Part shown: positions 1,243-43,002 of the stretch, piece by piece
Layout of the letters: each line of letters opens with the position of its first letter
Numbering within the stretch: the first letter of the stretch is position 1
Source of the DNA: a virus
Direction: 5' to 3' (one strand)
DNA length: 43,269 bases
Virus genome (UHGV): UHGV-0027971
Notes under the pieces: model-generated
Databases searched by the model: none
What the model was told of the DNA's origin: nothing
Seen by the model: only the letters and a program-made list of their open reading frames with translations
Translations under genes and position numbers: made by a program

Positions 1243-2433
1243 CTACTTACTAGTCCATTCATCAATCATATTCGCCCAATCTTGTAGCATCTCAGCCCTC
1301 TGCTCACGATATTCTGCCTTGTTATAAACAGCTCGTACCCCTTTTTGTTCATGGGCAAGGCTCTTCTCAATCCAGTCAGTATTGTACCCGGCCTCATGTA
1401 GCAAGGTGCTGGCTGTACGCCGTAAGTCATGGGGACCAAACTTAGGCAACAACTCCCCTTCTTTCTGAGCCAGGCGATACGTCAGTGTCAAAACCCGGTT
1501 TAAAGTAGCGCTACTCATTGGCGCATCGGAATCGTACCGCGAAGGAAGGATAAAATCAGAGCTACCGGCAAAGGTTTTGAGAGCAATCATAATATCCATT
1601 GCCTGTCTGGAAAGAAAAACCAAATGTGGATTACGTCGTTTCATCCTTTCCTTTGGTATCGTCCATAATGCCTCACTAAAATTGATCTCGTTCCAGGTTG
1701 CGTTAGTAAGCTCACTTTTACGTACCATCGTTAACAGCAAAAGTTTAACCGCTGCTCTGATTGATGGCGTCGTTCCTACCCGTTCCATGTACCGATACAT
1801 CAGACCAATTTCAACTGGCGTCAATGCCCTGTCTCGAGGCTCAAATTTCGCTATGCTTGCAGGCCGTACCAGATCAGCAGGATTCTCCACCTTCTGACCG
1901 CGCTCAATAGCCCAGCGATAGACTTGCAATACAATCTCTCTAGCGTGTACAGCTGTCGCTGGTGCCCCTCTCTCGACAATGTTATCGGTTAATGCGCGTA
2001 AGTCCTCATGTGTAATCTCACTAAGTTTCTGCTGGGCAAATTTTGACTTCAACTCCCTTTGATATACCGAACGCCGCATATCACGCGTCGATTCAGCCAT
2101 TTGATAACCGCGTAACCATTTCTCAGTCCACGCACCAAAAGTCTCCGCATCTTTAATACGCGCTTTATCTCTGGCTTTTTCCCTCGCAGGCGATATTCCA
2201 CTGGCAACCATTTTTTTGGCTTCATTGAGCCGTTCACGCGCTTCTGCAAGCGTGATCCCTCCAACACCATAGCGGCCAAAAGTAACAGTCTCCTGTCTTC
2301 CGTTTATTGAATAGTTATAACGAAATGAAATAGTTCCAGCCGGAGTGACCGCAACATACAGACCATCACGGTCATTAACTTTATAGAGTTTCTCCTTCGG
2401 CTTAAGGTGATGCAGCCTGGTGTCAGTCAACAT
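1243..2433 (-). CDS. int: tyrosine recombinase / integrase, P4-type (element 1)
   Basis: 396 aa; N-terminal MLTDTRLHHLKP..LYKVNDRDGLYV and C-terminal HDLRRTASTLLHEAGY..WIEKSLAH..GVRAVYNKAEY motifs typical of P4/CP4-57-like integrases; paralog of 41752..43002. Confidence 0.9.
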   Translation of the reverse strand: MLTDTRLHHLKPKEKLYKVNDRDGLYVAVTPAGTISFRYNYSINGRQETVTFGRYGVGGITLAEARERLNEAKKMVASGISPAREKARDKARIKDAETFGAWTEKWLRGYQMAESTRDMRRSVYQRELKSKFAQQKLSEITHEDLRALTDNIVERGAPATAVHAREIVLQVYRWAIERGQKVENPADLVRPASIAKFEPRDRALTPVEIGLMYRYMERVGTTPSIRAAVKLLLLTMVRKSELTNATWNEINFSEALWTIPKERMKRRNPHLVFLSRQAMDIMIALKTFAGSSDFILPSRYDSDAPMSSATLNRVLTLTYRLAQKEGELLPKFGPHDLRRTASTLLHEAGYNTDWIEKSLAHEQKGVRAVYNKAEYREQRAEMLQDWANMIDEWTSK

Positions 2434-7401: not shown

Positions 7402-7421
7402 TACTGTATAAATATACAGTT
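7402..7421 (+). promoter_or_regulatory. LexA (SOS) box TACTGTATAAATATACAGTT overlapping a promoter (-35 TTGATA at 7398..7403)
   Basis: Near-consensus CTGT-N8-ACAG with AT-rich spacer, 20 bp upstream of the 7441 start. Confidence 0.75.
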
Positions 7422-7440
7422 ATTGCATGGAGAAGATAAG

Positions 7441-7698
7441 ATGCAGCAGTATCACTATCCACTGGAAGAGGGATTTACCGAAAGGATTCACACGCCGGGA
7501 GGCGTCAGGTCACTGGTGGAGGGATCGCACTTGATGAAATTACTCCGGGATCTCGATAAGGATGGATTTAATGTCGATGGCCCACTTGCCGAACTGACTG
7601 CACTGATTAACTACGTCACCAGCTCACAGATGTCTATGCGGGATCTGCAAACACATCTCGACTATTGTGCCGAACAATTACGAAAACAAACCCGGTAA
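7441..7698 (+). CDS. SOS-regulated small protein, stand-alone homolog of the shared antirepressor C-terminal module (Tum-like role inferred)
   Basis: 85 aa from ATG 7441 (RBS GGAGAAG; track start 7423 is a forced TTG). Aligns with the C-termini of the proteins at 9345, 11074 and 41064 (IH.P.GV..L.E.S.LM.LL...DG..V.G..AELT...Y......RD.QTH..Y). Confidence 0.6.
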   Translation: MQQYHYPLEEGFTERIHTPGGVRSLVEGSHLMKLLRDLDKDGFNVDGPLAELTALINYVTSSQMSMRDLQTHLDYCAEQLRKQTR

Positions 7699-7705
7699 AT
7701 TTAAA

Positions 7706-7721
7706 GGCCGCAAGAGCGGCC
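7706..7721. terminator. hairpin terminator between convergent genes
   Basis: GGCCGC-aaga-GCGGCC followed by a T-rich tract; between the 7441..7698 (+) and 7721..8449 (-) 3' ends. Confidence 0.55.
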
Positions 7722-8449
7722 TATCGTTTCGCTTTGTGCTCATCCCAGCACGTTTTGCACCATGCCATTAAACCATCCGCATTTTGATTATTAGGGTAAA
7801 AGCTGGTTCGTTTTCTGCGGACATTACAAATTGGGCACCACTTCATATGGCGTGTATTCTTTGGGCCATCGAGACACCTTGCACACCACTTAGTCAATCC
7901 ATCTGGATTTTTTGACGATTTCCTGAATTTTTCATATGGAAGGTTTATTCTGCATCGCAAGCACTGCTTGCTACCACTTGAAACTCTGTTAGCTGATTCT
8001 TCTTTTGGCGGCGATACAGAAGGTATTCTTGCTGGCTCTGATACTGCCTGAGGTGCTTTTTTAGATGACTGAGACGATGTGTCATCACCAGGGAATCTTC
8101 CATGATATGCCGGACGCGTTGACACTCCAGGTGGAAGCTCTGCTGTAAATGGCTTTGGCTGAATCAGTTGCCTCTCTTTTGCTAACTCCTGCTGTTTATA
8201 ATATGTCTGGATTACCGCACTATCATAAGCAGGAGGTGCGGAAATATTAGGCGCATTACCTCCAGTTTTTTGAAACTGAGTAGAGGTGTGTTCTATCACC
8301 TGTGTACGATTAATCGTTATCTCCCCATCTTCGGTCTTTATCGTTTTGTTATGATTTACGACCGTACGATCAGAGATCTTAGTCTTGTTCTGGTTGATAA
8401 CGTAAATAATCACCGCAACCACACCAACAACTATCCAGAAAACTTCCAT
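7721..8449 (-). CDS. hypothetical membrane-anchored protein with two C-terminal zinc-ribbon-like motifs
   Basis: 242 aa; N-terminal hydrophobic helix, low-complexity S/P-rich linker, then CLRC..(x20)..WCARC and CPIC..(x20)..WCKTC. Confidence 0.5.
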   Translation of the reverse strand: MEVFWIVVGVVAVIIYVINQNKTKISDRTVVNHNKTIKTEDGEITINRTQVIEHTSTQFQKTGGNAPNISAPPAYDSAVIQTYYKQQELAKERQLIQPKPFTAELPPGVSTRPAYHGRFPGDDTSSQSSKKAPQAVSEPARIPSVSPPKEESANRVSSGSKQCLRCRINLPYEKFRKSSKNPDGLTKWCARCLDGPKNTRHMKWCPICNVRRKRTSFYPNNQNADGLMAWCKTCWDEHKAKR

Positions 8450-8604: not shown

Positions 8605-8690
8605 AGTAATCAGGCACTGGCAAAATCCAGTGCCGGGATTGGCGTCCCGGATTACTAGTAGGCGCATACCACGCCAGACGTGGTTTTTTT
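8605..8690 (+). ncRNA. candidate structured small RNA or leader element ending in a rho-independent terminator
   Basis: Outer stem TAGTAATC/GATTACTA enclosing hairpins GGCACTGG-caaaat-CCAGTGCC and CCGGGA-ttggcg-TCCCGG, then terminator CCACG-ccaga-CGTGG + T7 (8669..8690). Function unknown. Confidence 0.3.
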
Positions 8691-8845
8691 ATGCGTATAG
8701 CACAGTCATATCCGAATTATGGTGGGCTGGGCAGGGGCACCGAAAGGTGCGCCGGTACCTACTAGGCCGGTACGCCAACCTTGTCCAGTTCACCACCAGC
8801 AATTGGCGTTGCGGTGGTAGGTAACTTACTAGTAGAGGTATCGCT

Positions 8846-9352
8846 ATGCCAGGCCAAAAAATCTCAAACGACGATCTGTATTGGTTAATTTCTAATTCTC
8901 CACTCCTTCTTATGCTAAGGCAAGAAAGTGCACCACTGGTCAGTGAATTGATTAGCTGTAGAAATAGAATGTGGGATGAAGGGGCAGATTTAGATACCAA
9001 TTTGTTTGATCATCTTATGCAACTAGCAGTCGATAACAAGGCAAAACTACGCTCTGAATACAACGCTTATCCAGAAATAGCAAAATACCTTAACGCTGAA
9101 ATACTTGGTGGACCAGGTCAACCAGACCTAAAAACAAAAGATGGTTACCCTGTTGAGGTGAAGGTAGATACTTTTTCTCCTTCAGCATTAAAACAATTAT
9201 TAAGGTATATGGATGCTTCTGGCGCAGATTTTGGTTTTGCTTGTGCAAAAACTCTTTCTGTAAAACTCCCTGAAAACATAAAGTTCATCCAGTTAGATTA
9301 TAAAGATAATTGCTATTTCGTCGTGAAAGATGGAGGCAATGAAAATGCGTAA
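8846..9352 (+). CDS. hypothetical protein (168 aa), possible PD-(D/E)xK-like motif
   Basis: ORF with RBS GAGG; sequence KDGYPVEVKVD resembles a D..E.K nuclease core but this is a weak by-eye guess; AT-rich. Confidence 0.5.
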   Translation: MPGQKISNDDLYWLISNSPLLLMLRQESAPLVSELISCRNRMWDEGADLDTNLFDHLMQLAVDNKAKLRSEYNAYPEIAKYLNAEILGGPGQPDLKTKDGYPVEVKVDTFSPSALKQLLRYMDASGADFGFACAKTLSVKLPENIKFIQLDYKDNCYFVVKDGGNENA

Positions 9353-10064
9353 TATAGCTATTGATAAGTTGCCGATAACAACTCATTGCAACATCCCTGT
9401 AATGACTACAGAAATGCTTGCTGATTTGTATGACACAGAACCCAAACTGATTCGTCAAAACTATCAACGAAATGCAGATCGATTCATTGAGGGAAAACAT
9501 TGTTTCAAGCTGATAGGCGAAGAATTACGAGCATTTAAGAACGAGTCCTCTCAAAGAGGTTTGCTTAATATTGCACCAAAAGTAAGTCATCTTTTCTTAT
9601 GGACCGCTCGCGGTGCAGCACGACATGCGAAAATTCTTGAGACTGAAAAAGCGTGGGAGGTCTTCGAAAAACTGGAAGATTGCTACTTCGACAGAAAACC
9701 CGCAAATGTCAGTGGAGATGTTCGTCTCTCAGGTGGAGCTGATTTATCAAAGGCCACTCAGGTAATTGAAAAATTCATGCCCGCCATTATGGAGGCGATC
9801 AAGCTGGAAGACAAAAAAGAATACAGCGCCCCACTGAAGCCCGGCTACCGCAGCCTGATTCACTCGCCGTCGGGTGTTCTCGGCCTGACGGAGCACTCAC
9901 TGCTGATGAATCTGCTGAATCAGTTGCAGGAAGACGGGCACGACGTATCGGGCGCGGCGGCGGAACTGACCACCATGTTCTGCTACATCGTCGGTGTGAG
10001 TAAATGCCTGCGTGATATCCAGACGCACGCGGAGTACATCAACGACAAGGCAGGGTTCTTCTGA
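9345..10064 (+). CDS. antirepressor-like protein (ORF6N-type N-terminal domain + shared C-terminal module)
   Basis: Start taken at ATG 9345, 8 nt after GGAGG (track start 9330); C-terminal ~95 aa near-identical to those of 11074..12012 and 41064..41720. Confidence 0.7.
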   Translation: MRNIAIDKLPITTHCNIPVMTTEMLADLYDTEPKLIRQNYQRNADRFIEGKHCFKLIGEELRAFKNESSQRGLLNIAPKVSHLFLWTARGAARHAKILETEKAWEVFEKLEDCYFDRKPANVSGDVRLSGGADLSKATQVIEKFMPAIMEAIKLEDKKEYSAPLKPGYRSLIHSPSGVLGLTEHSLLMNLLNQLQEDGHDVSGAAAELTTMFCYIVGVSKCLRDIQTHAEYINDKAGFF

Positions 10065-10184
10065 CAGAACGGCGGCACAGGGATGTGCAAAACGGAACTA
10101 TCGTGACATGTCACAGGCCGCTTTCGCGGCCTTGTTTTTAACGAATGCCACCGCCGCCTGGGCGGGAATCCGCAGACACAAAAA

Positions 10185-10208: not shown

Positions 10209-10844
10209 CTATTTTATTGGCAGCTTATGCTTTGAAATTATGGCCAATCTGTTTTGGAAGTTTTCCGCATCACCCCACAACCAGGTTTCACCTTTCTCAA
10301 GTTCTTCCTCGTTATTCATCTCTATAAGTTCGCATGTCATCATGTCGTAACCATAGAGATGGAGGCCAAGTTCCAGTGCGTCATACATGCGAGCCTGCCA
10401 GAACGACATGCCTTCATGAGTCTGGTTGCGATCAGACACGATGATATCGTACCGTTCCAAGAGGTAGTTCATGAAGATGATGCCAGCGAAATCATGAAGC
10501 ACAGCACGATGCTTAGGCTTCTGGGTTCTCCATACCAATATCTGCGTGACAGGACGGCAGTTAAGATAGCTGTCAGGCTGGATAATGACACGATTGTAAT
10601 ACACTACCTCTTCGGTGAGGTCATTTATCAATGACAGTTCAAAGTGCGCCTGTGGAATCTCGCCTTTCTTACGATCGTCTACACGGACAACGCGGTATCC
10701 AGGAGCCAGAGAAACGCCTTTGACATCAGATGTGACATCGTTGCCGTTCACTAACTCTGAATACAGAGCGCGGTTGTCTGGAGTTTCGTTCAGATGAGCG
10801 AAAACCTCAGTTACCTTTGCCGGATTCAGCAGTTGTTGTGGCAT
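10209..10844 (-). CDS. hypothetical protein (211 aa), accessory gene
   Basis: Clean ORF with its own terminator and two upstream TTACC-N5-GGTAA-type sites (10886..10900, 10986..11000); no family recognised. Confidence 0.5.
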   Translation of the reverse strand: MPQQLLNPAKVTEVFAHLNETPDNRALYSELVNGNDVTSDVKGVSLAPGYRVVRVDDRKKGEIPQAHFELSLINDLTEEVVYYNRVIIQPDSYLNCRPVTQILVWRTQKPKHRAVLHDFAGIIFMNYLLERYDIIVSDRNQTHEGMSFWQARMYDALELGLHLYGYDMMTCELIEMNNEEELEKGETWLWGDAENFQNRLAIISKHKLPIK

Positions 10845-11073
10845 ACATCACCTCATAATATATAGATGCTTCTTTAAGCGGGATTTACCATTAGGGTAAA
10901 TGAACTATCCGAATGTTAAACGCCTTCGTACTCGTCAAATTTTCTCATGTGGGCTCCTCCTGTATCGGTGCCTAATCGCTATGGATCACCCGTGAGGTAA
11001 TAGTACGCTATTCACCCCCAGTCTGCAATCTGTACAGAATTATTTAAAGGCACATCCCTGTGCCGCCGTTCTG

Positions 11074-12012
11074 TCAGAAGAATCCTGCCTTGTCGTTGAT
11101 GTACTCCGCGTGGGTCTGGATATCACGCAGGCATTTGCTCACACCAACGATGTAGCAGAACATGGTGGTCAGCTCCGCCGCCGCGCCCGATACATCGTGC
11201 CCGTCTTCCTGCAACTGGTTCAGCAAATTCATCAGCAGTGAGTTCTCCGTCAGGCCGAGAACACCAGACGGCGAGTGAATCAGGCTGCGGTAGCCGGGCT
11301 TCAGCGGATAACCATAACATTTTGTCTGTGTTTTAATTGCCTCACGAAGCGCATCTAACATCTTGACTGCCACTTCATCATTCTCTGATGCAGATCCAGC
11401 AGGGAGATACTCCCCTTCAAGCGGAACCCGAGCAACAAGAGACAACGCTTCGGCGAATTGATCTTCATCAATTTCTTTGTACGAACAGCCAAAATGAGAT
11501 TTCAGTGACGACCACATGGTGATCATCGCCTTAGCCTGTTTTTCTTTTGGCAGAGACTGACCGCGACTCATGACGAGTTGTTTAATGGCTTCCTGCTGTT
11601 CAGTGGTGATTTTACCCGGCAACGCCTTTTTAGCTTTGCGTGGGTTAACTACATGGCCTTTAGTCCAGTAATCGTAGAGCACATCGTCACACTCTTCCTG
11701 ATACTGGATTACCTTGTCGCGGATTTCAGGGCGTACTTTGTTTGGACTGATGCTGTTCAACCAAGCTGCCAATTTTCGTAAAGCCATACAAATCATGGCT
11801 TGCACCCCACCGGCAGAAGGTATGGTGATTTCCACCATACCCTTCGAGAAGCGTTGAGAAATCTTCTTATGTTGAGATTTCCAGTCTAGCCCCATTCCCT
11901 CAACGATAGGTTTCATTGGGGTATACGGTTCACCGTTGTGATTGACAACATAAAGCTCTGCGCCGTGGAATGGCACGTTGATAGTAGATACCGCTGTTGC
12001 TATACTCGTCAT
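11074..12012 (-). CDS. ant: antirepressor (AntA-type N-terminal domain + shared C-terminal module)
   Basis: 312 aa; N-terminal region resembles AntA/P22 Ant-type domains; directly downstream of the arc-like gene as in P22 immI. Confidence 0.8.
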   Translation of the reverse strand: MTSIATAVSTINVPFHGAELYVVNHNGEPYTPMKPIVEGMGLDWKSQHKKISQRFSKGMVEITIPSAGGVQAMICMALRKLAAWLNSISPNKVRPEIRDKVIQYQEECDDVLYDYWTKGHVVNPRKAKKALPGKITTEQQEAIKQLVMSRGQSLPKEKQAKAMITMWSSLKSHFGCSYKEIDEDQFAEALSLVARVPLEGEYLPAGSASENDEVAVKMLDALREAIKTQTKCYGYPLKPGYRSLIHSPSGVLGLTENSLLMNLLNQLQEDGHDVSGAAAELTTMFCYIVGVSKCLRDIQTHAEYINDKAGFF

Positions 12013-12087
12013 GTCGTTAATTCCTATACGTAGTTTTACGATACTGAAGCCCTGACGGTCTGGCCACCGTTGGGCTTCGCTGTTTTA
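12013..12087 (+). ncRNA. candidate sar-like antisense RNA opposite the ant ribosome-binding region
   Basis: Plus-strand promoter inside the ant 5' end (-35 TTGATA 11978..11983, 17-bp spacer, -10 TATACT 12001..12006) and plus-strand terminator in the arc-ant gap (GAAGCCC..ACGGT-ctggcc-ACCGT..GGGCTTC + GCTGTTTTA, 12046..12087); predicted ~75 nt. Confidence 0.45.
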
Positions 12088-12252
12088 TGCCACGCTATTC
12101 TTCTCACCAGTGAGTCCATACACTTTCCTCAGCTGATAGATAATCTCTGTATTGAACTTTCGGCATTCTTTTTCGCCATTTCTTTCAATAGCTAACTTCA
12201 CATCGTCCGGAAAACGAACTCGTCGTTGACACATCTCTTTTGCTTTTTGCAT
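12085..12252 (-). CDS. arc: Arc-like ribbon-helix-helix repressor
   Basis: 55 aa from ATG 12252 with strong RBS AAGGAG (track start 12288 is a forced TTG); size and beta-strand region (RRVRFPDDVKLAIERNGE) fit P22 Arc. Confidence 0.7.
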   Translation of the reverse strand: MQKAKEMCQRRVRFPDDVKLAIERNGEKECRKFNTEIIYQLRKVYGLTGEKNSVA

Positions 12253-12266
12253 TTCATATCTCCTTA

Positions 12267-12281
12267 GCCCCACGGTGGGGC
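12267..12281. promoter_or_regulatory. Mnt-operator-like palindrome GCCCCACGGTGGGGC upstream of the arc-like gene
   Basis: Perfect 15-bp palindrome with CCACGGTGG core as I recall for the P22 mnt operator; sits just upstream of the arc RBS. Confidence 0.6.
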
Positions 12282-12372
12282 AAAACAATTGTCACACCGT
12301 GCGTCATTGATGTCAAGCACACGGTGAGGCATACTTCAATCATTGCAAGTAACTCAATATTTGGTGAAGAAC

Positions 12373-12804
12373 ATGAGCAGAGAAGATCCACAACTAAGGA
12401 TCAGACTTCCCGTTGAAGTAAAAGAAAAAATAGAAATTTCTGCAAAAGCCAATAAGCGATCAATGAACGCTGAAATAGTACAACGTCTTGACACCAGCTT
12501 TCTGAAAGATATTCATGAAGATGACGTAATTTCTGCTTATGAAGCAAAAATTATTGCAAACAATGCACGGCATGAAATATCAAATATTATTTTCAAAAGA
12601 ACCTTTAATGAAATTAATAAGAAAATAACACTTGGACATACAAGTTTTTATATAAACCTTAATGACCTTGAACTGGAATCACTTGCAGATAATGATTACC
12701 AGATCATCTTTGAAAAAACATTTAATAAGCTCAATGAACTAGGTTACATCATCTGTGAAAACTCATGGGATGCAGATGGTTTTGGAATTGAAATACCTGA
12801 ATAG
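12373..12804 (+). CDS. mnt: Mnt-like ribbon-helix-helix repressor with extended C-terminal region
   Basis: N-terminus MSREDPQLRIRLPVEVKEKIEISAKANKRSMNAEIVQRL matches my recollection of P22 Mnt (MARDDPHFNFRMPMEVREKLKFRAEANGRSMNSELLQIV); divergent from arc-ant; start taken at ATG 12373. Confidence 0.75.
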   Translation: MSREDPQLRIRLPVEVKEKIEISAKANKRSMNAEIVQRLDTSFLKDIHEDDVISAYEAKIIANNARHEISNIIFKRTFNEINKKITLGHTSFYINLNDLELESLADNDYQIIFEKTFNKLNELGYIICENSWDADGFGIEIPE

Positions 12805-12846: not shown

Positions 12847-13458
12847 TTGAAAAACGCCACATTACTGATGTATGTTACAACAAGGAGCGATATTTTGAAA
12901 ACCATATCTATATTAAAGGTTGCATTAGGCGTCGCTATTATTTTGACTCTCTCAATATTGTTTTATTTTTACCACAAAAAAAATGCTATTGCTCTTGATG
13001 GTCACGCGGCAAACTCATTTTTCTCAGAGTACATAGTGCCGCTATCAGGAAGCGGTATAACAAATAAATATACTGACTATGACATCAAATATGGAATTGA
13101 TGATGGGGAGACTATTGTATTACATGTAATCATTAAAAACCTAATGACAGTAAATAAAAATACAGACTTCAACGATAAAAATACAATACATCACAACAAC
13201 AGCAAAACATTAATTTCTTATAGTAGCAACATCTATACGGATAAATACCTAAAATACATCTCAGAAGATACAATAAAAGCAACCAGCGAAAAGTTAAAAA
13301 ACATATATTGTGCATCCGGCAGTTTTCACAAATTATCGCCGCAGGAGCGTTTATTCTACGAAGCAAGAAAACAACGTAAGTCAATAATATTACATTATTA
13401 TGCTGATTCAGGGGAGTCACTCATATTTAATATTGGGGTTTCCCCTGAATCATGCTAA
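12847..13458 (+). CDS. hypothetical membrane-anchored protein (203 aa), AT-rich accessory gene
   Basis: N-terminal hydrophobic helix (ILKVALGVAIILTLSILFYFY), N/K/Y-rich body; position next to mnt corresponds to sieA in P22-like maps (positional analogy only). Confidence 0.45.
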   Translation: MKNATLLMYVTTRSDILKTISILKVALGVAIILTLSILFYFYHKKNAIALDGHAANSFFSEYIVPLSGSGITNKYTDYDIKYGIDDGETIVLHVIIKNLMTVNKNTDFNDKNTIHHNNSKTLISYSSNIYTDKYLKYISEDTIKATSEKLKNIYCASGSFHKLSPQERLFYEARKQRKSIILHYYADSGESLIFNIGVSPESC

Positions 13459-13469
13459 AGGCGTTTAAC

Positions 13470-16400
13470 TCACCGCATCACCGGATCCACCTGGTTTATT
13501 AGTGGCGCAATCCAGAACAGGTTATTGCCTGGTATCAGAGTTCGGACATTATGCGCAATACGATCACCGGCATCACCATTCAACACTCCTGCGGTCACAT
13601 CAATGATGCTATCCGCAAGACCAAATGACGGTCCGAATAGAGATCCTACGAATCCACGACTGGCATACCTAGACTGTGTGCCAGTGCCAAATAAAGCCCC
13701 CAGCCCAACAGCACCACCAGTAGCCTTTTCAGCCATGTTGTTATATTCCATCAATGGCCCAAGAATACCGGATCTATCTATACCCTCAAGCACCAGCTTC
13801 TCTGGTGACCAGTCAACATTTTTCCCTTTCGATGCTTCTTTTAGCGCATAGACCAGTGAGCCAAGAGCAATCTGAAATGCAGTGCCATAATAAAATTGCG
13901 CAGTTCCCTCCTGTAACCCACCAAGTAGCGCACGGTTGTATGAAGCCGTTGTGAATGATTTAAACTGAAATATCGTTCGCCCCATTGGAGTACTCGCCCA
14001 TAAAGGTGTGTCACCAATACCGGGGGTGATGATAGTGTTATTAACGTCTTTCAGAACCGCTGACTGGAATACTCCGGCAACGTACTGATCGTCCCATTTA
14101 TCAAAGTTACCAATGTGCCATCCATCAATTACCTCACCATGTTTCTCGAACTCACTGCGAATACGCGCAGCCATATTGTCGTTGATACCGAGTTTTGCCA
14201 TGCGACGTGCAGAAAACGCACCGGACAAAATACCGTCTGACGTGAGCATTCCGTTCATGGATTTGTTTATGTCATTAAATCGATCCATGAGTGTCAGCTT
14301 GCCGAAGGCATCAGTAATTCGCTCCATTCCTGCTTCGACTGCTGTTGTCCTGGAAGAACTGTCAACAAGATCACCAATTGCACGAGAACGTGAATGTAGT
14401 ACAGCTTCCAATCCAATCCCCATCTTCAACATATCTTCTTTGCTGGCCTTAAATGCCGGTGATTGGGATATCTGAGAAGCATAGCCTTTCATGGTGTTAC
14501 GGAAACCATTAACCATAACCCCTCTGGCCAGATCTGGAATAGCTGATACTGTCATTCCACCGAGTTTGGTCGTGAAGTTCACATCCCGCAGAAAAGCGCC
14601 AGCACGAACAAAAAACGAAGACGGATCATCAGGCATCCCATATGTACCAACAAGACGATCGCGTAATGCTGTTATGTCTCTGAGATCATTTGCTCTTGAT
14701 TTTGAAAGTCTGGACTGTTCTTTCCGTAATTCCTTTTCGTACTTTCGCATTAATGAATCGAGTTTACCCTGAGGAACAACTTCACCATTGCTCTCATAAC
14801 GTGCTTTCAGATTTGCCACACTTTCGTCATATTTCGCCTTTATTTTTTCAGGCACTTCCCGTAACAGACTGTCATATTCGTCCTCAATTAATTGCAGACG
14901 CTCAGTCATAGTTCGTTTGCCAAATGTTCTCGTCAACTCAATTTCTGCTGCCGCTTCACGGATATGACGTTGCAGCACGTAATTCACATCACTTTCAAGA
15001 TAATCCCTGATAAGACTATCAGGAACATTTAATGTTCTTTCTTTCGTACTACCTGCGGCTTTTACAGAAAATACGCTGACAAAATCCTGTGGAACCTTAG
15101 CACCAGTAATTTTATTAATTACGATATCCGCTGCAATTTCAGCATCCTCAGGATCCAGTGTTTTATTTCCTCTCGACCACCAGTCAACCAAAATACGTCG
15201 AAATTTATCGCGTTCACTGATTATTTTTCCAACTTTATATATGCGTGGGAAATAGCTTGCCTGGCCTAATGCTTTCAGTTCTTCATCTGGCGGCAATAAA
15301 CCAAGCTTTTGCATTTCAACTTTCACCCGATTTAATACAGTTCGCATCGCCTGCGCCGTTTCCTGAACAACAGGATTAGCATGCACATCACCGCTTCGCA
15401 TAGCATTCCCAACCTGCTGACGAAATGAATCAAAACTCATGTCACCACCATCAGCTTTATACTTTGCGTATGCCTGTTTATTTCCGACAACAACAGCAGC
15501 TTCTTCACGCTGCCATCCACGTGTACGGGTTTCTACAGCTACCGGTGTTTCAATCCCCCTTTCATTTCCTTTAAGGGTGAAATTATTTTCGGCTAACTCC
15601 AGCGTTGTTTTTCGCACCGTCTTGGACGGAGACTCCATTAACCTTGTCAAAGGAGTAAGATAGCTCCCTGCTTTCCATGCAGCCTTTCCAACCCACCCAC
15701 CGGAAACAGGGGTTAAATCATCCAGAGTCGCTGTATCAATTTTCATAGCACCAACACTACCACCATCGGAAAGCGAAGCGGCAGCCCTGTCAGTCACTGA
15801 TGTAATGCTCATATTATCAAGAGCATCAGCAACCTCACGTGTGGCTGCAGCCCGGACGGATGGCGAAAGCGCAACACCAGCACTGGCAAACACGCCGCTC
15901 ATCATCGCACCCGCTGCAACGTGAGCGGCACTTTCACCCCATGAGCGTGTTATTTGCTGATTATTCAGTACAACCTCGCTTAATGCTGTACCGGCAGCAC
16001 CAATCGCAATCTGTGAGCCAATACGCGCCAGTGCCCCTCCTTGAGCACCGGGAATAAACATTGACGCAACAGTAACCGGATCCATTCCCGCAGCAATACT
16101 GGCAAGGGTTCCAACTACGCCAGCATCAGACAATAAACGTCTGTCTTCATTTTCATCATCTATCTGCTGCTTAATCCACGCCGTTTCCTCTGGCGATCGG
16201 GAATCTGCAAATTTCGCCCCCCAGTATTCATAACCGTGCAACTCATTTTTATCAGCATATGGGTTATAACCCTCGACCGGTTCAAACTGTCTGGCTGGGC
16301 GGAAAAAACCAGACAGAATATTGTTCTGTCGCATTGCAGCCCCCCATACGGAAGGCTCAGGTGGCAATGGCTCAGGATTAGCCCCTTCCGGAAGGGCAAC

Positions 16401-28835: not shown

Positions 28836-28912
28836 GTGGCATTAGCTCAGTTGGACAGAGCAACCGCCTTCTAAGCGGTTGGTCGCAGGTTCGAATCCTG
28901 CATGCCACGCCA
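28836..28912 (+). tRNA. tRNA-Arg (anticodon UCU)
   Basis: Cloverleaf by eye: acceptor GTGGCAT/ATGCCAC, D-arm TAGCTCAGTTGGACAGAGCA, anticodon stem ACCGC/GCGGT with loop CTTCTAA, T-arm GCAGGTTCGAATCCTGC, discriminator G and CCA. Confidence 0.85.
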
Positions 28913-36219: not shown

Positions 36220-36804
36220 ATGAAAAGTATCCAGGACGTCCGCAGGCAAAATCTCAACGACTTGATCGACCGTGAATTCAATGGTGTTCAGACGCGGATG
36301 GCAGAAAAACTTGGAACTCAGGCAAATCTGGTAAACCGCTGGGCTCTTGGCAAGAAGGTTATCGGCGACCAGGTTGCGCGAAAAATTGAAGCTGCCGCCA
36401 ATAAACCCCGTAACTGGCTTGATATCGATCGCTCGCTTTCTCAGGAAGGTTTTCAGCCTGTCGGCCCAAGCGACATTGGCCAGCTGGCGGCTCACAACCT
36501 GGAACGCTGGATGAGCGAAAGCCGCGACCTTTCAACACAGGGAAAACTTCACCGCGCATCCGGCGTAGCCCAGGTGACAATCAGCCGCCTGTTAAACAAT
36601 GAGGTCAGCGTTTCCATTTCCACCCTGGAGAATGTTGCATCCGCATTCGGGCGTCACGGCTATGAATTACTGATTCACCCGCACGACCCTGCGACCATCA
36701 ACTATGATCGCTCGCGCTACGCATTGTTACCCGAAACCGAGAAAGCAAAGATCGAAAGTTACATTGAATTTGTCATCAACCAGAACGAAAAAAGCAAACA
36801 ATAA
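36220..36804 (+). CDS. putative prophage repressor with two HTH domains and no recognisable autocleavage domain
   Basis: 194 aa; HTH-like segments VQTRMAEKLGTQANLVNRWALGKK and ASGVAQVTISRLLNNE; no LexA/CI-like peptidase motif seen; occupies the cI position. Confidence 0.6.
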   Translation: MKSIQDVRRQNLNDLIDREFNGVQTRMAEKLGTQANLVNRWALGKKVIGDQVARKIEAAANKPRNWLDIDRSLSQEGFQPVGPSDIGQLAAHNLERWMSESRDLSTQGKLHRASGVAQVTISRLLNNEVSVSISTLENVASAFGRHGYELLIHPHDPATINYDRSRYALLPETEKAKIESYIEFVINQNEKSKQ

Positions 36805-40739: not shown

Positions 40740-41011
40740 AATCACGCCTGACGAATCGCGATTATCTCGCTATTGGTATTGCAGAGATTGCTGGACTCAG
40801 TGGCGCATGATTTGACAATGCCGCCAGAGCTATCGCATACTGACCGCACTAGAACTTCAAAGCGGTCACCCGCACCCGATAGCTTTGCGGCTTTTTTATG
40901 CCTGCAATTTGGCATAGTCACATCCGTACAAAGGTCGGGTGGAGAGGCGTAATACAATACCCAAAAGGGGAATATGCCCGGAGCGTCTTTGAAGGCTCTA
41001 GTTGACACCCG

Positions 41012-41034
41012 ATCACCAGCTACTAACTGGTGAT
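41012..41034. promoter_or_regulatory. palindrome ATCACCAG-N7-CTGGTGAT next to -35-like TTGACA upstream of the third antirepressor gene
   Basis: 8-bp inverted half-sites; differs from both the LexA box and the TTACC-N5-GGTAA motif. Confidence 0.4.
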
Positions 41035-41751: not shown

Positions 41752-43002
41752 TTATTCCCCCGCCATCCACTTCTCAAACTTCGACGGGGAGAACGGAATC
41801 AGATCCGTATGCTCCCCGTTAATCCAGGAATCAATCATATCGGACCACTGCTGCAACATGTAGGCGCGCTGTCTGGCGTATTCCGCTTTGTTATATACGG
41901 CGCGCACACCTTTCTGCTCATGTGCCAGAGCCTTTTCAATCCAGTCTGAAGGATAACCAGCCTCATGCAACAACGTACTGGCTGTACGGCGCATATCGTG
42001 TACGGTGAAGTCCTGAATATGCTCACCATCTTCATTTATTATTTTCACCGTTCTGTCGATCAGAGAGTTCAGCGCGGCATTAGATAATGGCTTCCGGAAA
42101 TTGTAACGACCAGGAACCAGATATTCACTTCCACCAGCGCACATCTGCAACCCGACCAATATATCCTGTGCCTGTTTAGGCAGGTAAATAACGTGCGCCC
42201 GGCTTCCCTTCATACGGTCTGAAGGAATTGTCCATGTCCATTTTTTAAAATCTATTTCATCCCACGTTGCATTGGTGAATTCGCCTTTACGAACCATAGT
42301 GATAAGCACCAGCTTTAAAGCCATTTTCATAGTGCCCATAGCGCCAATGGCATCCAACGTGCGGAAGAACAGGCCAATTTCTTCTGGTGTCAGTGTTCGC
42401 TCTCGTGGTTTAAATATGGCGATAGACGAAGGTTTAATGTCAGCCGCAGGATTAAACAAACCATGACCACGGTCATTGGCGTGACGGTATACGCTGCTGA
42501 TGATCTCCCGGGCCTGCACTGCTGTTGCCCGGCCACCGCGTTCGACAATCCGGTCACACAAATCACGAACCATCGATGTGGTAATTTCAGCCATCATTTT
42601 GTTGCCAAGAACCGGAAGTATGTCACGGTCGATCACCGCCTGCTTCATTGCGCGGGTACTTTCAGCCAGGATGACGTGTTTCATATAACTGTCGGTATGT
42701 ACCGCAAATGTCTCGGCACCACGAATCTTTTTGATACCGTCACGTTTAGCCGCAGCCGGCGACTGGCCTGCTTTAAGCAGCTTCTTTGCAGCAATCAGTT
42801 CTTCCCGCGCTTCTGCCAGGCTGATACCGTCACGCCCATACTGCCCGATTACCAGTGTTTCGCGGCGACCGTTGATACGGTAGTCATAGCGAAACGAGAC
42901 CGTGCCTGACGTAAGCACAGCTACATACAGCCCGTCACGATCGGAGACCTTGTACAGTTTGTCCTGCGGCTTGAGGTTTTTTAATTTTGTATCGGTAAGC
43001 AC
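41752..43002 (-). CDS. int: tyrosine recombinase / integrase, P4-type (prophage)
   Basis: 416 aa; C-terminal HDMRRTASTLLHEAGY..WIEKALAHEQKGVRAVYNKAEY; adjacent to the right att copy. Confidence 0.9.
   Translation of the reverse strand: MLTDTKLKNLKPQDKLYKVSDRDGLYVAVLTSGTVSFRYDYRINGRRETLVIGQYGRDGISLAEAREELIAAKKLLKAGQSPAAAKRDGIKKIRGAETFAVHTDSYMKHVILAESTRAMKQAVIDRDILPVLGNKMMAEITTSMVRDLCDRIVERGGRATAVQAREIISSVYRHANDRGHGLFNPAADIKPSSIAIFKPRERTLTPEEIGLFFRTLDAIGAMGTMKMALKLVLITMVRKGEFTNATWDEIDFKKWTWTIPSDRMKGSRAHVIYLPKQAQDILVGLQMCAGGSEYLVPGRYNFRKPLSNAALNSLIDRTVKIINEDGEHIQDFTVHDMRRTASTLLHEAGYPSDWIEKALAHEQKGVRAVYNKAEYARQRAYMLQQWSDMIDSWINGEHTDLIPFSPSKFEKWMAGE

What the first reader, a model, noticed from the sequence alone, without database searches (positions are those of the whole stretch)
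11074..12804. P22 immI-like module (mnt / arc / ant) with Mnt-type operator and a predicted sar-like antisense RNA
Gene order and orientation copy P22 immI: a Mnt homolog (12373..12804, +) divergent from a 55-aa Arc-like gene (12252..12085) followed by ant (12012..11074). A perfect palindrome GCCCCACGGTGGGGC (12267..12281) with the CCACGGTGG core sits at the arc promoter. Inside the ant 5' end on the opposite strand there is a good sigma-70 promoter (TTGATA-17-TATACT) that would drive a ~75-nt transcript ending at a plus-strand-only terminator in the arc-ant gap, exactly the P22 sar geometry. The Mnt homolog is ~60 aa longer than P22 Mnt at its C-terminus.
Basis: partly seen in the sequence, partly recalled or inferred. 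Interest (0 to 1): 0.6.

Follow-up and report, generated by a model that had tools for sequence, protein, structure and literature searches.

The report
P22-type antirepressor control cassette, variant form
This stretch is a real relative of the textbook phage P22 "immunity I" switch (two small repressors plus an antisense RNA controlling an antirepressor); it sits in an epsilon15-like E. coli prophage, is rebuilt in several defined ways, and is a variant of a known system rather than a new one.

Summary
The genes are mnt-like (12373..12804, +), arc-like (12252..12085, -) and ant (12012..11074, -). A sar RNA homolog at 12014..12081 (+) passes Rfam's curated threshold. Its promoter lies inside the first codons of ant, and its terminator works only on the + strand.

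The palindrome GCCCCACGGTGGGGC covers about +1 to +15 of the predicted ant promoter, where P22 has its Mnt operator.

New details:
- The palindrome is one of three 15-bp sites sharing the core CNCACSGTGNG. They lie 24 and 25 bp apart and are conserved in 14 Enterobacterales species.
- Pant and Pmnt are back to back, sharing only their -35 hexamers. In P22 they overlap almost fully.
- Mnt carries an about 90-aa C-terminal alpha/beta domain with no fold match, in place of P22's coiled coil.
- The Arc-like and Mnt-like proteins have the same predicted base-contacting residues (Q-R-R).
- Residues 231-307 of Ant match the solved SPC32H antirepressor, and the prophage encodes the matching SPC32H-type repressor.
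- The same domain occurs in two more genes nearby, one behind a LexA box and one behind isrK/C4 RNAs.

No transcription, DNA binding or protein binding was tested.

The parts
11074..12012 (-). ant: a 312-aa chimeric antirepressor. It has a P22_AR_N N-terminal domain (residues 12-121), a middle region alignable to P22 Ant up to about residue 217, and a C-terminal domain (residues 231-307) of the SPC32H Ant type.
   Evidence: Pfam P22_AR_N at 2.5e-45. 40% identity to P22 Ant over residues 1-217. Residues 231-307 match PDB 5d50_E 'Anti-repressor protein' at E 6.9e-14. 43% identity to the small Ant encoded at 7441..7698.
11978..12006 (+). Psar-like promoter TTGATA-17-TATACT, lying inside ant codons 2-12 on the opposite strand.
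   Evidence: Promoter scan gives 10 of 12 matches. The -10 (TAYACT) sits directly next to the ant start codon in about 55 sar variants and in loci with unrelated ant N-termini.
12014..12087 (+). sar-like antisense RNA, about 68-74 nt. It has a 5' hairpin with the anti-Shine-Dalgarno UUCCU in its loop, then a terminator hairpin (12046..12078) and a T-run that reaches the arc stop codon.
   Evidence: Rfam RF00262 at 45.2 bits against a gathering score of 43, model positions 1-68 of 68. Fold energy -23.1 kcal/mol, z-score -2.6. In 36 of 37 unique homologous 5' segments, nt 1-5 are all paired, against 6.8% of shuffles, using 18 different stem sequences.
12085..12252 (-). arc-like gene: a 55-aa ribbon-helix-helix (RHH) protein and the first gene of the arc-ant operon.
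   Evidence: hhalign against canonical Arc proteins gives 97.6% probability, E 3.8e-12. PHROG 'Arc-like repressor' at 3.4e-5. There is no Pfam hit, and the AlphaFold2 (AF2) model is low confidence.
12267..12281 (.). Site S1: the perfect palindrome GCCCCACGGTGGGGC, at about +1 to +15 of the predicted Pant. This is the position of P22's Mnt operator.
   Evidence: P22 layout.
12291..12305 (.). Site S2: GTCACACCGTGCGTC, in the spacer and -10 of Pant. This is the position of P22's Arc operator.
   Evidence: The site is nearly invariant in 14 genome loci and in the viral loci.
12316..12330 (.). Site S3: AGCACACGGTGAGGC, in the spacer of the candidate Pmnt. The family consensus is ACCCCACCGTGGGGC, so the copy in this window is degenerate.
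12288..12316 (-). Predicted Pant: TTGACA (12316..12311), 17-nt spacer, GACAAT (12293..12288).
   Evidence: Promoter scan gives 10 of 12 matches with a TG before the -10. The element is conserved in related loci.
12307..12335 (+). Candidate Pmnt: TTGATG, 17-nt spacer, CATACT. It is back to back with Pant, and the two -35 hexamers overlap.
   Evidence: Read from the sequence. It scores below the scan threshold here (8 of 12), but relatives carry TTGMWG-17-CATAAT at the same place.
12373..12804 (+). mnt-like gene, 143 aa. An N-terminal RHH is followed by a long helix (residues 55-86) and an alpha/beta domain (residues 91-140) that P22 Mnt lacks.
7404..7698 (+). Context: a LexA box CTGTATAAATATACAG (7404..7419) followed by a small 85-aa antirepressor gene (7441..7698) of the SPC32H type.
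   Evidence: PDB 5d50_E at E 5.6e-47. 88% identity to SPC32H ant. LexA-box pattern match.
36220..36804 (+). Context: the prophage repressor (194 aa). It is a homolog of the SPC32H Rep, no peptidase (self-cleavage) domain was found in it, and it is the presumed target of the Ant domains.
   Evidence: PDB 5d50_A 'Repressor' at E 3.5e-42 over residues 1-190. Pfam finds only HTH domains, with no S24 peptidase.

Best explanation
This is a functional-looking relative of the P22 immunity I region (an 'ant moron'). It lies between the ejection-protein genes and the tailspike gene of an epsilon15-like (Uetakevirus) E. coli prophage.

Proposed working:
- In the lysogen, the 143-aa Mnt-like RHH repressor is made from its own promoter. 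It binds the CACSGTG-core sites in the 120-bp divergent control region and keeps Pant off, so no antirepressor is made.
- When Pant fires, for example on infection of a cell that lacks Mnt, it transcribes arc and then ant.
- The Arc-like RHH protein then shuts the promoter region down.
- The convergent sar-like RNA starts one or two bases beyond the ant start codon. It pairs with the ant ribosome-binding site and limits Ant translation.
- Ant acts through its C-terminal SPC32H-type domain on the prophage's Rep repressor, which has no detected self-cleavage domain.

Shown here: homology of all four parts, their geometry, and conservation of the sites and of the RNA structure.

Inferred only: transcription of sar, which protein binds which site, and binding of Ant to Rep.
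For: - Gene order and homology.
- sar: Rfam match above the gathering score. Its start lies next to the ant ATG and its end at the arc stop codon, as for the annotated P22 sar at 15021..15090.
- sar family: a homologous terminator and a covarying 5' hairpin enclosing the anti-SD occur in about 55 variants. The same design is seen even where ant belongs to another family.
- Operators: three CNCACSGTGNG sites against 0.21 expected. Their layout is conserved in Kluyvera, Yersinia pestis, Citrobacter, Xenorhabdus, Pantoea, Proteus, Morganella, Raoultella, Mixta and others.
- The Mnt N-terminus MSREDPQLRIRLP is invariant across the aligned family members (39 sequences in all).
- Target: the Ant C-terminus matches 5d50_E and Rep matches 5d50_A. 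Published work describes the SPC32H Ant as a tetramer that binds two Rep dimers and breaks the Rep tetramer (PMC9638917). In the related phage vB_EcoP_ZX5, overexpressing a Bro-N antirepressor lowers lysogeny (PMC9782041).
- The role of sar in P22 is described in PMC12197685, and the 'ant moron' concept in PMC2629481.
Against: - There is no expression or binding data of any kind.
- The sar score is only 2 bits above threshold. In the fold of the full 74-nt RNA the 5' hairpin is not the minimum-energy structure.
- Pmnt matches the consensus weakly in this window (8 of 12), and S3 is degenerate compared with relatives.
- The Arc-like and Mnt-like proteins have the same Q-x-R-x-R strand pattern, and all three sites share one core. 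The P22-style assignment 'S1 = Mnt, S2 = Arc' is therefore not established. S1 switches between two half-site types among relatives.
- In the closest phage, TL-2011b, mnt carries a frameshift, so the module can decay.
- In the P22-like E. coli prophage Kapi1, mnt transcripts were not detected in lysogens (PMC12922286).
Confidence: 0.8

Rival explanations
1. The module is an inactive remnant. The genes look intact, but the circuit no longer controls anything. In this view the prophage relies on the small LexA-controlled Ant alone, as SPC32H does.
For: SPC32H, phiV10 and epsilon15 carry only the small Ant. TL-2011b has a frameshifted mnt. S3 and the Pmnt -10 are weaker here than in relatives. 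Only 36 of 5426 complete E. coli genomes carry the cassette.
Against: All three ORFs are intact. The cassette is 98-100% conserved in those 36 genomes. S1 is a perfect palindrome, and Pant and Psar each match the consensus at 10 of 12 positions. The same architecture persists at about 60% protein identity across many genera, which argues for selection.
Confidence: 0.1
2. The sar-like element is only a structured intergenic spacer or a terminator, not a separately transcribed antisense RNA. In this view the promoter-like hexamers are a by-product of ant coding sequence.
For: The number of promoter-like matches in the region is no higher than chance. The hexamers lie in coding sequence. The Rfam score is marginal.
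Against: No + strand gene lies upstream that would need this terminator. The hairpin is followed by a T-run on the + strand only. Unrelated antirepressor families in this cassette all begin M-x-S-I/V-A/T, with TAYACT embedded directly next to the start codon. That pattern is best explained by a conserved promoter. The 5' hairpin covaries while always enclosing the anti-SD.
Confidence: 0.07
3. Mnt-like and Arc-like proteins do not have separate operators. Both read the same CACSGTG-core sites and either compete or form mixed assemblies, so the switch logic differs from P22's two-operator scheme.
For: The predicted base-contacting positions are identical: Mnt-like Q-L-R-I-R and Arc-like Q-R-R-V-R, against H-F-N-F-R and Q-F-N-L-R in P22. 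The three sites share one core. S1 varies between the S2-like and S3-like half-site types in relatives, while both proteins stay nearly constant.
Against: S2 and S3 each keep their own distinct flanks almost unchanged across genera. That fits two different readers. Residues outside the strand also shape specificity in this fold.
Confidence: 0.3

Closest known systems
Immunity I (immI) region of Salmonella phage P22: mnt, arc, sar and ant, with their operators
   Same: - Divergent mnt and arc-ant units.
- An RHH Mnt and an RHH Arc.
- Ant with a P22_AR_N domain.
- A sar homolog that starts next to the ant ATG and ends at the arc stop codon.
- A 7+1+7 palindrome with a CCACGGTGG core just downstream of the Pant -10.
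- Location between the ejection-protein genes and the tailspike gene.
   Different: - Three sites with one shared core, instead of two unrelated operators.
- Pant and Pmnt share only their -35 hexamers, whereas P22's two promoters overlap almost entirely (14793-14821 and 14798-14826).
- Mnt is 143 aa with an alpha/beta C-terminal domain instead of an about 30-aa coiled coil.
- The contact residues are Q/R/R in both repressors.
- The Ant C-terminal domain is unrelated to P22's.
- The host phage is a Uetakevirus, not a Lederbergvirus.
Rep/Ant antirepression system of Salmonella phage SPC32H (PDB 5D50), an epsilon15-like phage
   Same: The window encodes a full-length Rep homolog (E 3.5e-42) and a small Ant homolog (E 5.6e-47, 88% identity) behind a LexA box. 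The 17-bp palindrome ATTACC-N5-GGTAAT is dispersed in both genomes, 14 and 12 copies.
   Different: SPC32H has one stand-alone Ant. Here the same domain is also fused to the C-termini of two large antirepressors, each under a different control circuit. The SPC32H interval between the ejection genes and the tailspike is about 0.65 kb, against about 6.2 kb here.
'Ant morons' of P22-like phages (epsilon34, CUS-3, HK620 and others)
   Same: A highly variable accessory cassette at the same position in the late operon, often holding mnt, arc, sar and ant in different combinations (PMC2629481). CUS-3 ant shares 94% DNA identity with part of this ant.
   Different: Described for P22-like phages. This one lies in an epsilon15-like genome and carries the long-Mnt/short-Arc regulator pair.
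P1/P7 c4-icd-ant (immI) and Gifsy-1 isrK-orf45-anrP modules
   Same: These also control an antirepressor through a small RNA. A module of this type lies 2-3 kb to the left in the window (isrK at 8614..8690, C4 at 8715..8800).
   Different: The RNA families and logic differ. They are not part of the finding's own interval; they are a neighbouring, parallel circuit.

Membership tests
P22 immI-type cassette | An RHH Mnt repressor gene divergent from the ant operon | tested here: met
   Pfam Arc at 1.1e-14. 32% identity to P22 Mnt, E 3e-14. PDB 1mnt at E 3.5e-7.
P22 immI-type cassette | An RHH Arc repressor as the first gene of the ant operon | tested here: met
   Profile-profile comparison gives 97.6% probability, E 3.8e-12. 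Pfam alone gives no hit. The AF2 monomer model is too weak to use.
P22 immI-type cassette | An antirepressor gene with a P22 Ant N-terminal domain | tested here: met
   P22_AR_N at 2.5e-45. 40% identity over 217 aa.
P22 immI-type cassette | The whole Ant is homologous to P22 Ant, including the C-terminal part | tested here: not met
   The alignment to P22 Ant stops at about residue 217. Residues 231-307 match the SPC32H Ant instead.
P22 immI-type cassette | An Mnt operator palindrome just downstream of the Pant -10 | tested here: met
   S1 at 12267..12281 has its centre 14 nt beyond the -10. In P22 the distance is about 12 nt. Binding was not tested.
P22 immI-type cassette | A separate Arc operator of different sequence between the -35 and -10 of Pant | tested here: inconclusive
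   S2 lies at that position but shares its core with S1 and S3.
P22 immI-type cassette | Pant and Pmnt overlap almost completely | tested here: not met
   The predicted promoters share only the -35 hexamers (12307..12316). This layout is conserved in relatives. P22 layout.
P22 immI-type cassette | A short C-terminal coiled-coil tetramerisation domain in Mnt | tested here: not met
   The protein is 143 aa. AF2 predicts a long helix followed by a beta-alpha-beta-beta domain. No fold match was found. The oligomeric state cannot be tested here.
Rfam RF00262 (sar RNA) | Score at or above the curated gathering threshold over the full model | tested here: met
   45.2 bits against 43, model positions 1-68 of 68. 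P22 itself scores 97.8.
Rfam RF00262 (sar RNA) | Transcribed as a discrete about 68-nt RNA that represses ant translation | not testable with these tools
   Needs a Northern blot, RACE or RNA-seq, plus an ant reporter.
SPC32H-type Rep/Ant system (as the target of Ant) | A Rep homolog in which no peptidase domain is detected, and an Ant-domain homolog | tested here: met
   5d50_A at E 3.5e-42. 5d50_E at E 5.6e-47 (small Ant) and 6.9e-14 (Ant C-terminus). Pfam finds no S24 domain.
SPC32H-type Rep/Ant system (as the target of Ant) | The Ant domain physically binds Rep and releases it from DNA | not testable with these tools
   Known for SPC32H from PMC9638917, which cites the original work. It has not been tested for the fused domain.

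The most novel reading that the evidence does not exclude
One repressor-binding 'warhead' domain (the SPC32H Ant type) is deployed three times in a single prophage. Each copy sits behind a different gate: a LexA box (DNA damage), an isrK/C4 RNA module preceded by candidate Rep operators, and the Mnt/Arc/sar cassette. The prophage's repressor, which has no detected self-cleavage domain, would then integrate three independent signals.

Within the third gate, the two RHH repressors share one operator code (Q-R-R residues reading CACSGTG). The uncharacterised C-terminal domain of Mnt would act as a sensor or a higher-order assembly domain.
Probability: 0.3. Interest if true: 0.55.

Novelty: new variant of a known kind. 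Interest (0 to 1): 0.35.

Why it matters
The P22 immI region is a classic model for repressor-operator recognition and antisense control, but only the P22 version has been studied. This variant gives a natural comparison with a different operator layout: three sites with one shared core.

The long-Mnt protein family is widespread and uncharacterised. It includes Yersinia pestis and many Enterobacterales, is annotated only as 'Arc family DNA-binding protein', and carries an extra domain of unknown fold.

The variant also links the P22-type control cassette to the structurally solved SPC32H Rep/Ant mechanism. That makes a specific, cheap experiment possible: does the fused Ant domain release Rep from DNA?

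In practical terms, it marks a second and a third route to induction in epsilon15-like prophages of pathogenic E. coli.

Tried and rejected
- **RNAalifold on a MAFFT alignment.** Run on 34 sar variants, it recovered only the terminator, because the 5' hairpins were misaligned. I replaced it with per-sequence folding and a shuffle control.
- **AF2 model of the Arc-like protein.** It came out at pLDDT 56, as expected for a monomer model of an obligate dimer with a shallow alignment. I did not use it for fold search.
- **Sequence search of the Arc-like protein against the PDB.** It gave spurious TALE-repeat and designed-protein hits, which I disregarded.
- **LexA box or Rep operator inside the mnt-arc control region.** I found none.
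- **Correlating the S1 half-site type with Arc-like sequence variants among relatives.** No pattern emerged.
- **The PHROG label 'partition protein ATPase'** for Mnt-like families. I read it as an annotation error carried over from the P22 mnt entry, which bears that product name in the RefSeq record, and did not follow it.
- **The SPC32H primary paper** (PMC3807360) is not held in the library.
Full report
**1. The observation**

- ant, 11074..12012 (-), 312 aa
- a 55-aa ORF, 12085..12252 (-)
- a 143-aa ORF, 12373..12804 (+)

The palindrome GCCCCACGGTGGGGC lies at 12267..12281. A consensus scan finds TTGATA-17-TATACT at 11978..12006 on the + strand. It also finds a hairpin followed by a T-run on the + strand only, at 12057..12076.

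The number of promoter-like matches in the region (4) is not above the shuffle expectation (4.6). The scan alone therefore proves nothing. What matters is position and conservation, covered below.

**2. The proteins**

*Mnt-like protein.* The 143-aa protein has a Pfam Arc-type ribbon-helix-helix (RHH) domain (1.1e-14). It is 32% identical to P22 Mnt over 88 residues (E 3e-14). Its best solved relative is the Mnt repressor 1mnt (E 3.5e-7).

*Arc-like protein.* The 55-aa protein has no Pfam hit and only a weak pairwise match to P22 Arc (E 4e-5). I aligned its small family (19 clusters) and compared that profile with a profile of canonical Arc proteins taken from other sar-linked loci. The result was 97.6% probability, E 3.8e-12, aligned from residue 1 to 43. 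An AlphaFold2 (AF2) monomer model of it was too poor to use (pLDDT 56).

*Ant.* It has the P22_AR_N domain (2.5e-45) and is 40% identical to P22 Ant over residues 1-217.

**3. The sar RNA**

Rfam's sar model (RF00262) matches 12014..12081 (+) over its whole length, at 45.2 bits against a gathering score of 43. P22's own sar scores 97.8.

The geometry matches the annotated P22 record. The RNA begins one or two bases beyond the ant start codon (12012), its promoter sits in the first codons of ant, and its T-run reaches the arc stop codon (12085..12087).

To test this beyond a marginal score, I scanned viral contigs for the conserved terminator. This recovered about 55 distinct sar-like sequences. 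All have a TAYACT -10 directly next to the complement of a start codon.

Folding the 37 unique 5' segments gave these results:
- In 36 of them, nucleotides 1-5 are all paired, against 6.8% of shuffled sequences.
- They use 18 different stem sequences, for example GUCGU/ACGAU here and GUUGG/CUGAC in P22.
- The anti-Shine-Dalgarno motif (UUCCU here) is enclosed by the helix in 36.

The inner terminator stem of this window (GACGGU/ACCGUU) differs from P22's (GACUGU/GCAGUU) by changes on both sides that keep the pairing.

In 14 bacterial genomes that carry the same regulator pair, the gene downstream of arc often belongs to a different antirepressor family. It still begins M-x-S-I/V-A/T, with the -10 embedded, and is still preceded by a sar-like hairpin and terminator. 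Rfam's model does not reach threshold in those loci. The first few ant codons thus seem to belong to the regulatory cassette.

No tool here can show that the RNA is made.

**4. The control region**

The palindrome is not alone. The motif CNCACSGTGNG occurs three times in the 43-kb window, all within 12267..12330, against 0.21 expected. The three 15-bp sites are:

| Site | Coordinates | Sequence |
|---|---|---|
| S1 | 12267..12281 | GCCCCACGGTGGGGC |
| S2 | 12291..12305 | GTCACACCGTGCGTC |
| S3 | 12316..12330 | AGCACACGGTGAGGC |

Their centres are 24 and 25 bp apart.

The predicted Pant is TTGACA (12316..12311), a 17-nt spacer, then GACAAT (12293..12288). S1 therefore covers about +1 to +15, which is where P22 has its Mnt operator. 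S2 lies in the spacer and -10, where P22 has its Arc operator.

A candidate Pmnt (TTGATG at 12307..12312, 17-nt spacer, CATACT at 12330..12335) is weak here. In relatives it reads TTGMWG-17-CATAAT, and S3 fills its spacer.

This layout is conserved in Kluyvera, Yersinia pestis, Citrobacter, Dryocola, Xenorhabdus, Pantoea, Rouxiella, Proteus, Morganella, Raoultella and Mixta, and in viral contigs. It consists of:
- S1, which is variable
- S2, nearly invariant as GTCACACCGTGCGTC
- overlapping -35 hexamers
- S3, nearly invariant as ACCCCACCGTGGGGC
- the -10 CATAAT

It differs from P22, whose two promoters overlap almost completely.

**5. Who binds what (inference)**

In the alignments, the three strand positions that contact bases in Arc and Mnt (from established structural work on these proteins) are as follows:

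| Protein | Contact residues |
|---|---|
| Mnt-like, this window | Q, R, R |
| Arc-like, this window | Q, R, R |
| P22 Mnt | H, N, R |
| P22 Arc | Q, N, R |

This fits the shared core of the three sites. It leaves open whether the two proteins have separate operators, as position would suggest (S1 and S3 for Mnt, S2 for Arc), or read the same sites. S1 switches between S2-like and S3-like half-sites among relatives, which I cannot explain.

**6. The long Mnt**

The protein belongs to a family of 142-152 aa proteins, found as 262 clusters with E of 1e-3 or better. They are annotated only as 'Arc family DNA-binding protein'. The protein matches phrog_1388, of unknown function, over its full length.

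**7. What Ant targets**

Beyond residue 217, Ant is unrelated to P22 Ant. Residues 231-307 match chain E of PDB 5D50, the antirepressor of Salmonella phage SPC32H (E 6.9e-14).

The window also encodes:
- a full-length homolog of the SPC32H repressor at 36220..36804 (5d50_A, E 3.5e-42; no peptidase domain found)
- a stand-alone 85-aa Ant at 7441..7698 (5d50_E, E 5.6e-47; 88% identical to SPC32H ant), directly behind a canonical LexA box at 7404..7419
- a third gene at 9330..10064, with an ORF6N N-terminus, whose last 105 residues are 82% identical to the Ant C-terminus. It lies downstream of isrK and C4 RNA homologs.

Published work describes the SPC32H Ant as a tetramer that binds two Rep dimers and breaks the DNA-binding Rep tetramer (PMC9638917). 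It is therefore reasonable, but untested, that the Ant of this cassette acts on the resident Rep through its C-terminal domain.

The cassette's own control region contains neither a LexA box nor the presumed Rep operator. It would then be an independent gate.

**8. Context and distribution**

The window is an epsilon15-like (Uetakevirus) prophage. Its closest phage is TL-2011b (95.8% identity over 61% of a 4.5-kb query), in which mnt carries a one-base insertion.

SPC32H has only about 0.65 kb between its last ejection-protein gene and its tailspike gene, holding the small ant. Here that interval is about 6.2 kb. This is the position of the 'ant moron' described for P22-like phages, a region noted for high genetic flux (PMC2629481).

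The sar-arc-mnt segment occurs in 36 of 5426 complete E. coli genomes at 98-100% identity. There the genes are annotated only as 'hypothetical protein' and 'Arc family DNA-binding protein'.

**9. Verdict**

The element is a member of the immI kind by homology of all four parts. It departs from P22 in tested features: promoter overlap, the Mnt C-terminal domain and the Ant C-terminal domain. One feature, a separate Arc operator, is unresolved.

I classify it as a new variant of a known kind and of moderate interest. The main value is the link to the SPC32H mechanism and the uncharacterised long-Mnt family, not the existence of the cassette.

Noticed in passing
window 8614..10064: Rfam isrK (8614..8690, 68.1 bits) and C4 antisense RNA (8715..8800, 76.7 bits) are followed by a 168-aa ORF (8846..9352) and an ORF6N antirepressor (9330..10064). 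This is a P1 c4-icd-ant or Gifsy-1 isrK-anrP type module next to the P22-type one. Two ATTACC-N5-GGTAAT sites (8469, 8562) lie just upstream of it.
   Followed up: partly
window 7404..7698: A canonical LexA box, CTGTATAAATATACAG, lies directly upstream of an 85-aa homolog of the SPC32H antirepressor (PDB 5d50_E, E 5.6e-47). A second CTGT-N8-ACAG (7331) and an ATTACC-N5-GGTAAT site (7349) lie nearby.
   Followed up: partly
window 407, 4875, 7349, 8469, 8562, 10985, 28498, 31599, 31617, 33794, 33856, 36149, 36861, 36923; L149 (SPC32H), 12 sites: The 17-bp palindrome ATTACC-N5-GGTAAT (up to 1 mismatch) occurs 14 times in the window, against 0.05 expected. It occurs 12 times in SPC32H, against 0.08 expected. 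Copies flank the repressor gene in both genomes. It is probably the dispersed operator set of the Rep repressor.
   Followed up: partly
window 9831..10088 and 11050..11307: A 258-bp inverted repeat (96% identical) is formed by the shared C-terminal coding ends of the two large antirepressor genes. It brackets a 211-aa gene of unknown function (10209..10844, phrog_1349). Recombination between the arms would invert that segment.
   Followed up: no
L001 (TL-2011b) about 5780: The closest sequenced phage has an extra G in mnt (cacaactaagGgatcag). This frameshifts the gene, and the record annotates only a 113-aa internal ORF as hypothetical. The central base of its S1 site is C rather than G.
   Followed up: partly
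L124-L137, arc-ant junctions: Antirepressors of unrelated N-terminal families (Bro-N/KilA-like and P22_AR_N) downstream of the same arc-like gene all start M-x-S-I/V-A/T, with a TAYACT -10 on the opposite strand. They keep a sar-like hairpin and terminator that Rfam's sar model does not detect.
   Followed up: partly
window 12895..13458: A 187-aa protein with an N-terminal hydrophobic segment (phrog_8033, unknown function) lies just after mnt. This is the position where P22 carries sieA and orf59a, so it may be a superinfection-exclusion candidate.
   Followed up: no
window 1243..2433, 41752..43002, 40933..41022, 28836..28909: There are two tyrosine integrase genes with Arm-DNA-binding domains, one near each end of the window. 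There is also an sRNA-Xcc1 Rfam hit (62.9 bits) next to the right-hand integrase, and a tRNA inside the phage region.
   Followed up: no
window 7721..8449: A 242-aa ORF (phrog_6762, unknown function) has C-terminal matches to endonuclease VII, HNH and Lar-like zinc-ribbon families. It lies between the small Ant gene and the isrK/C4 module.
   Followed up: no
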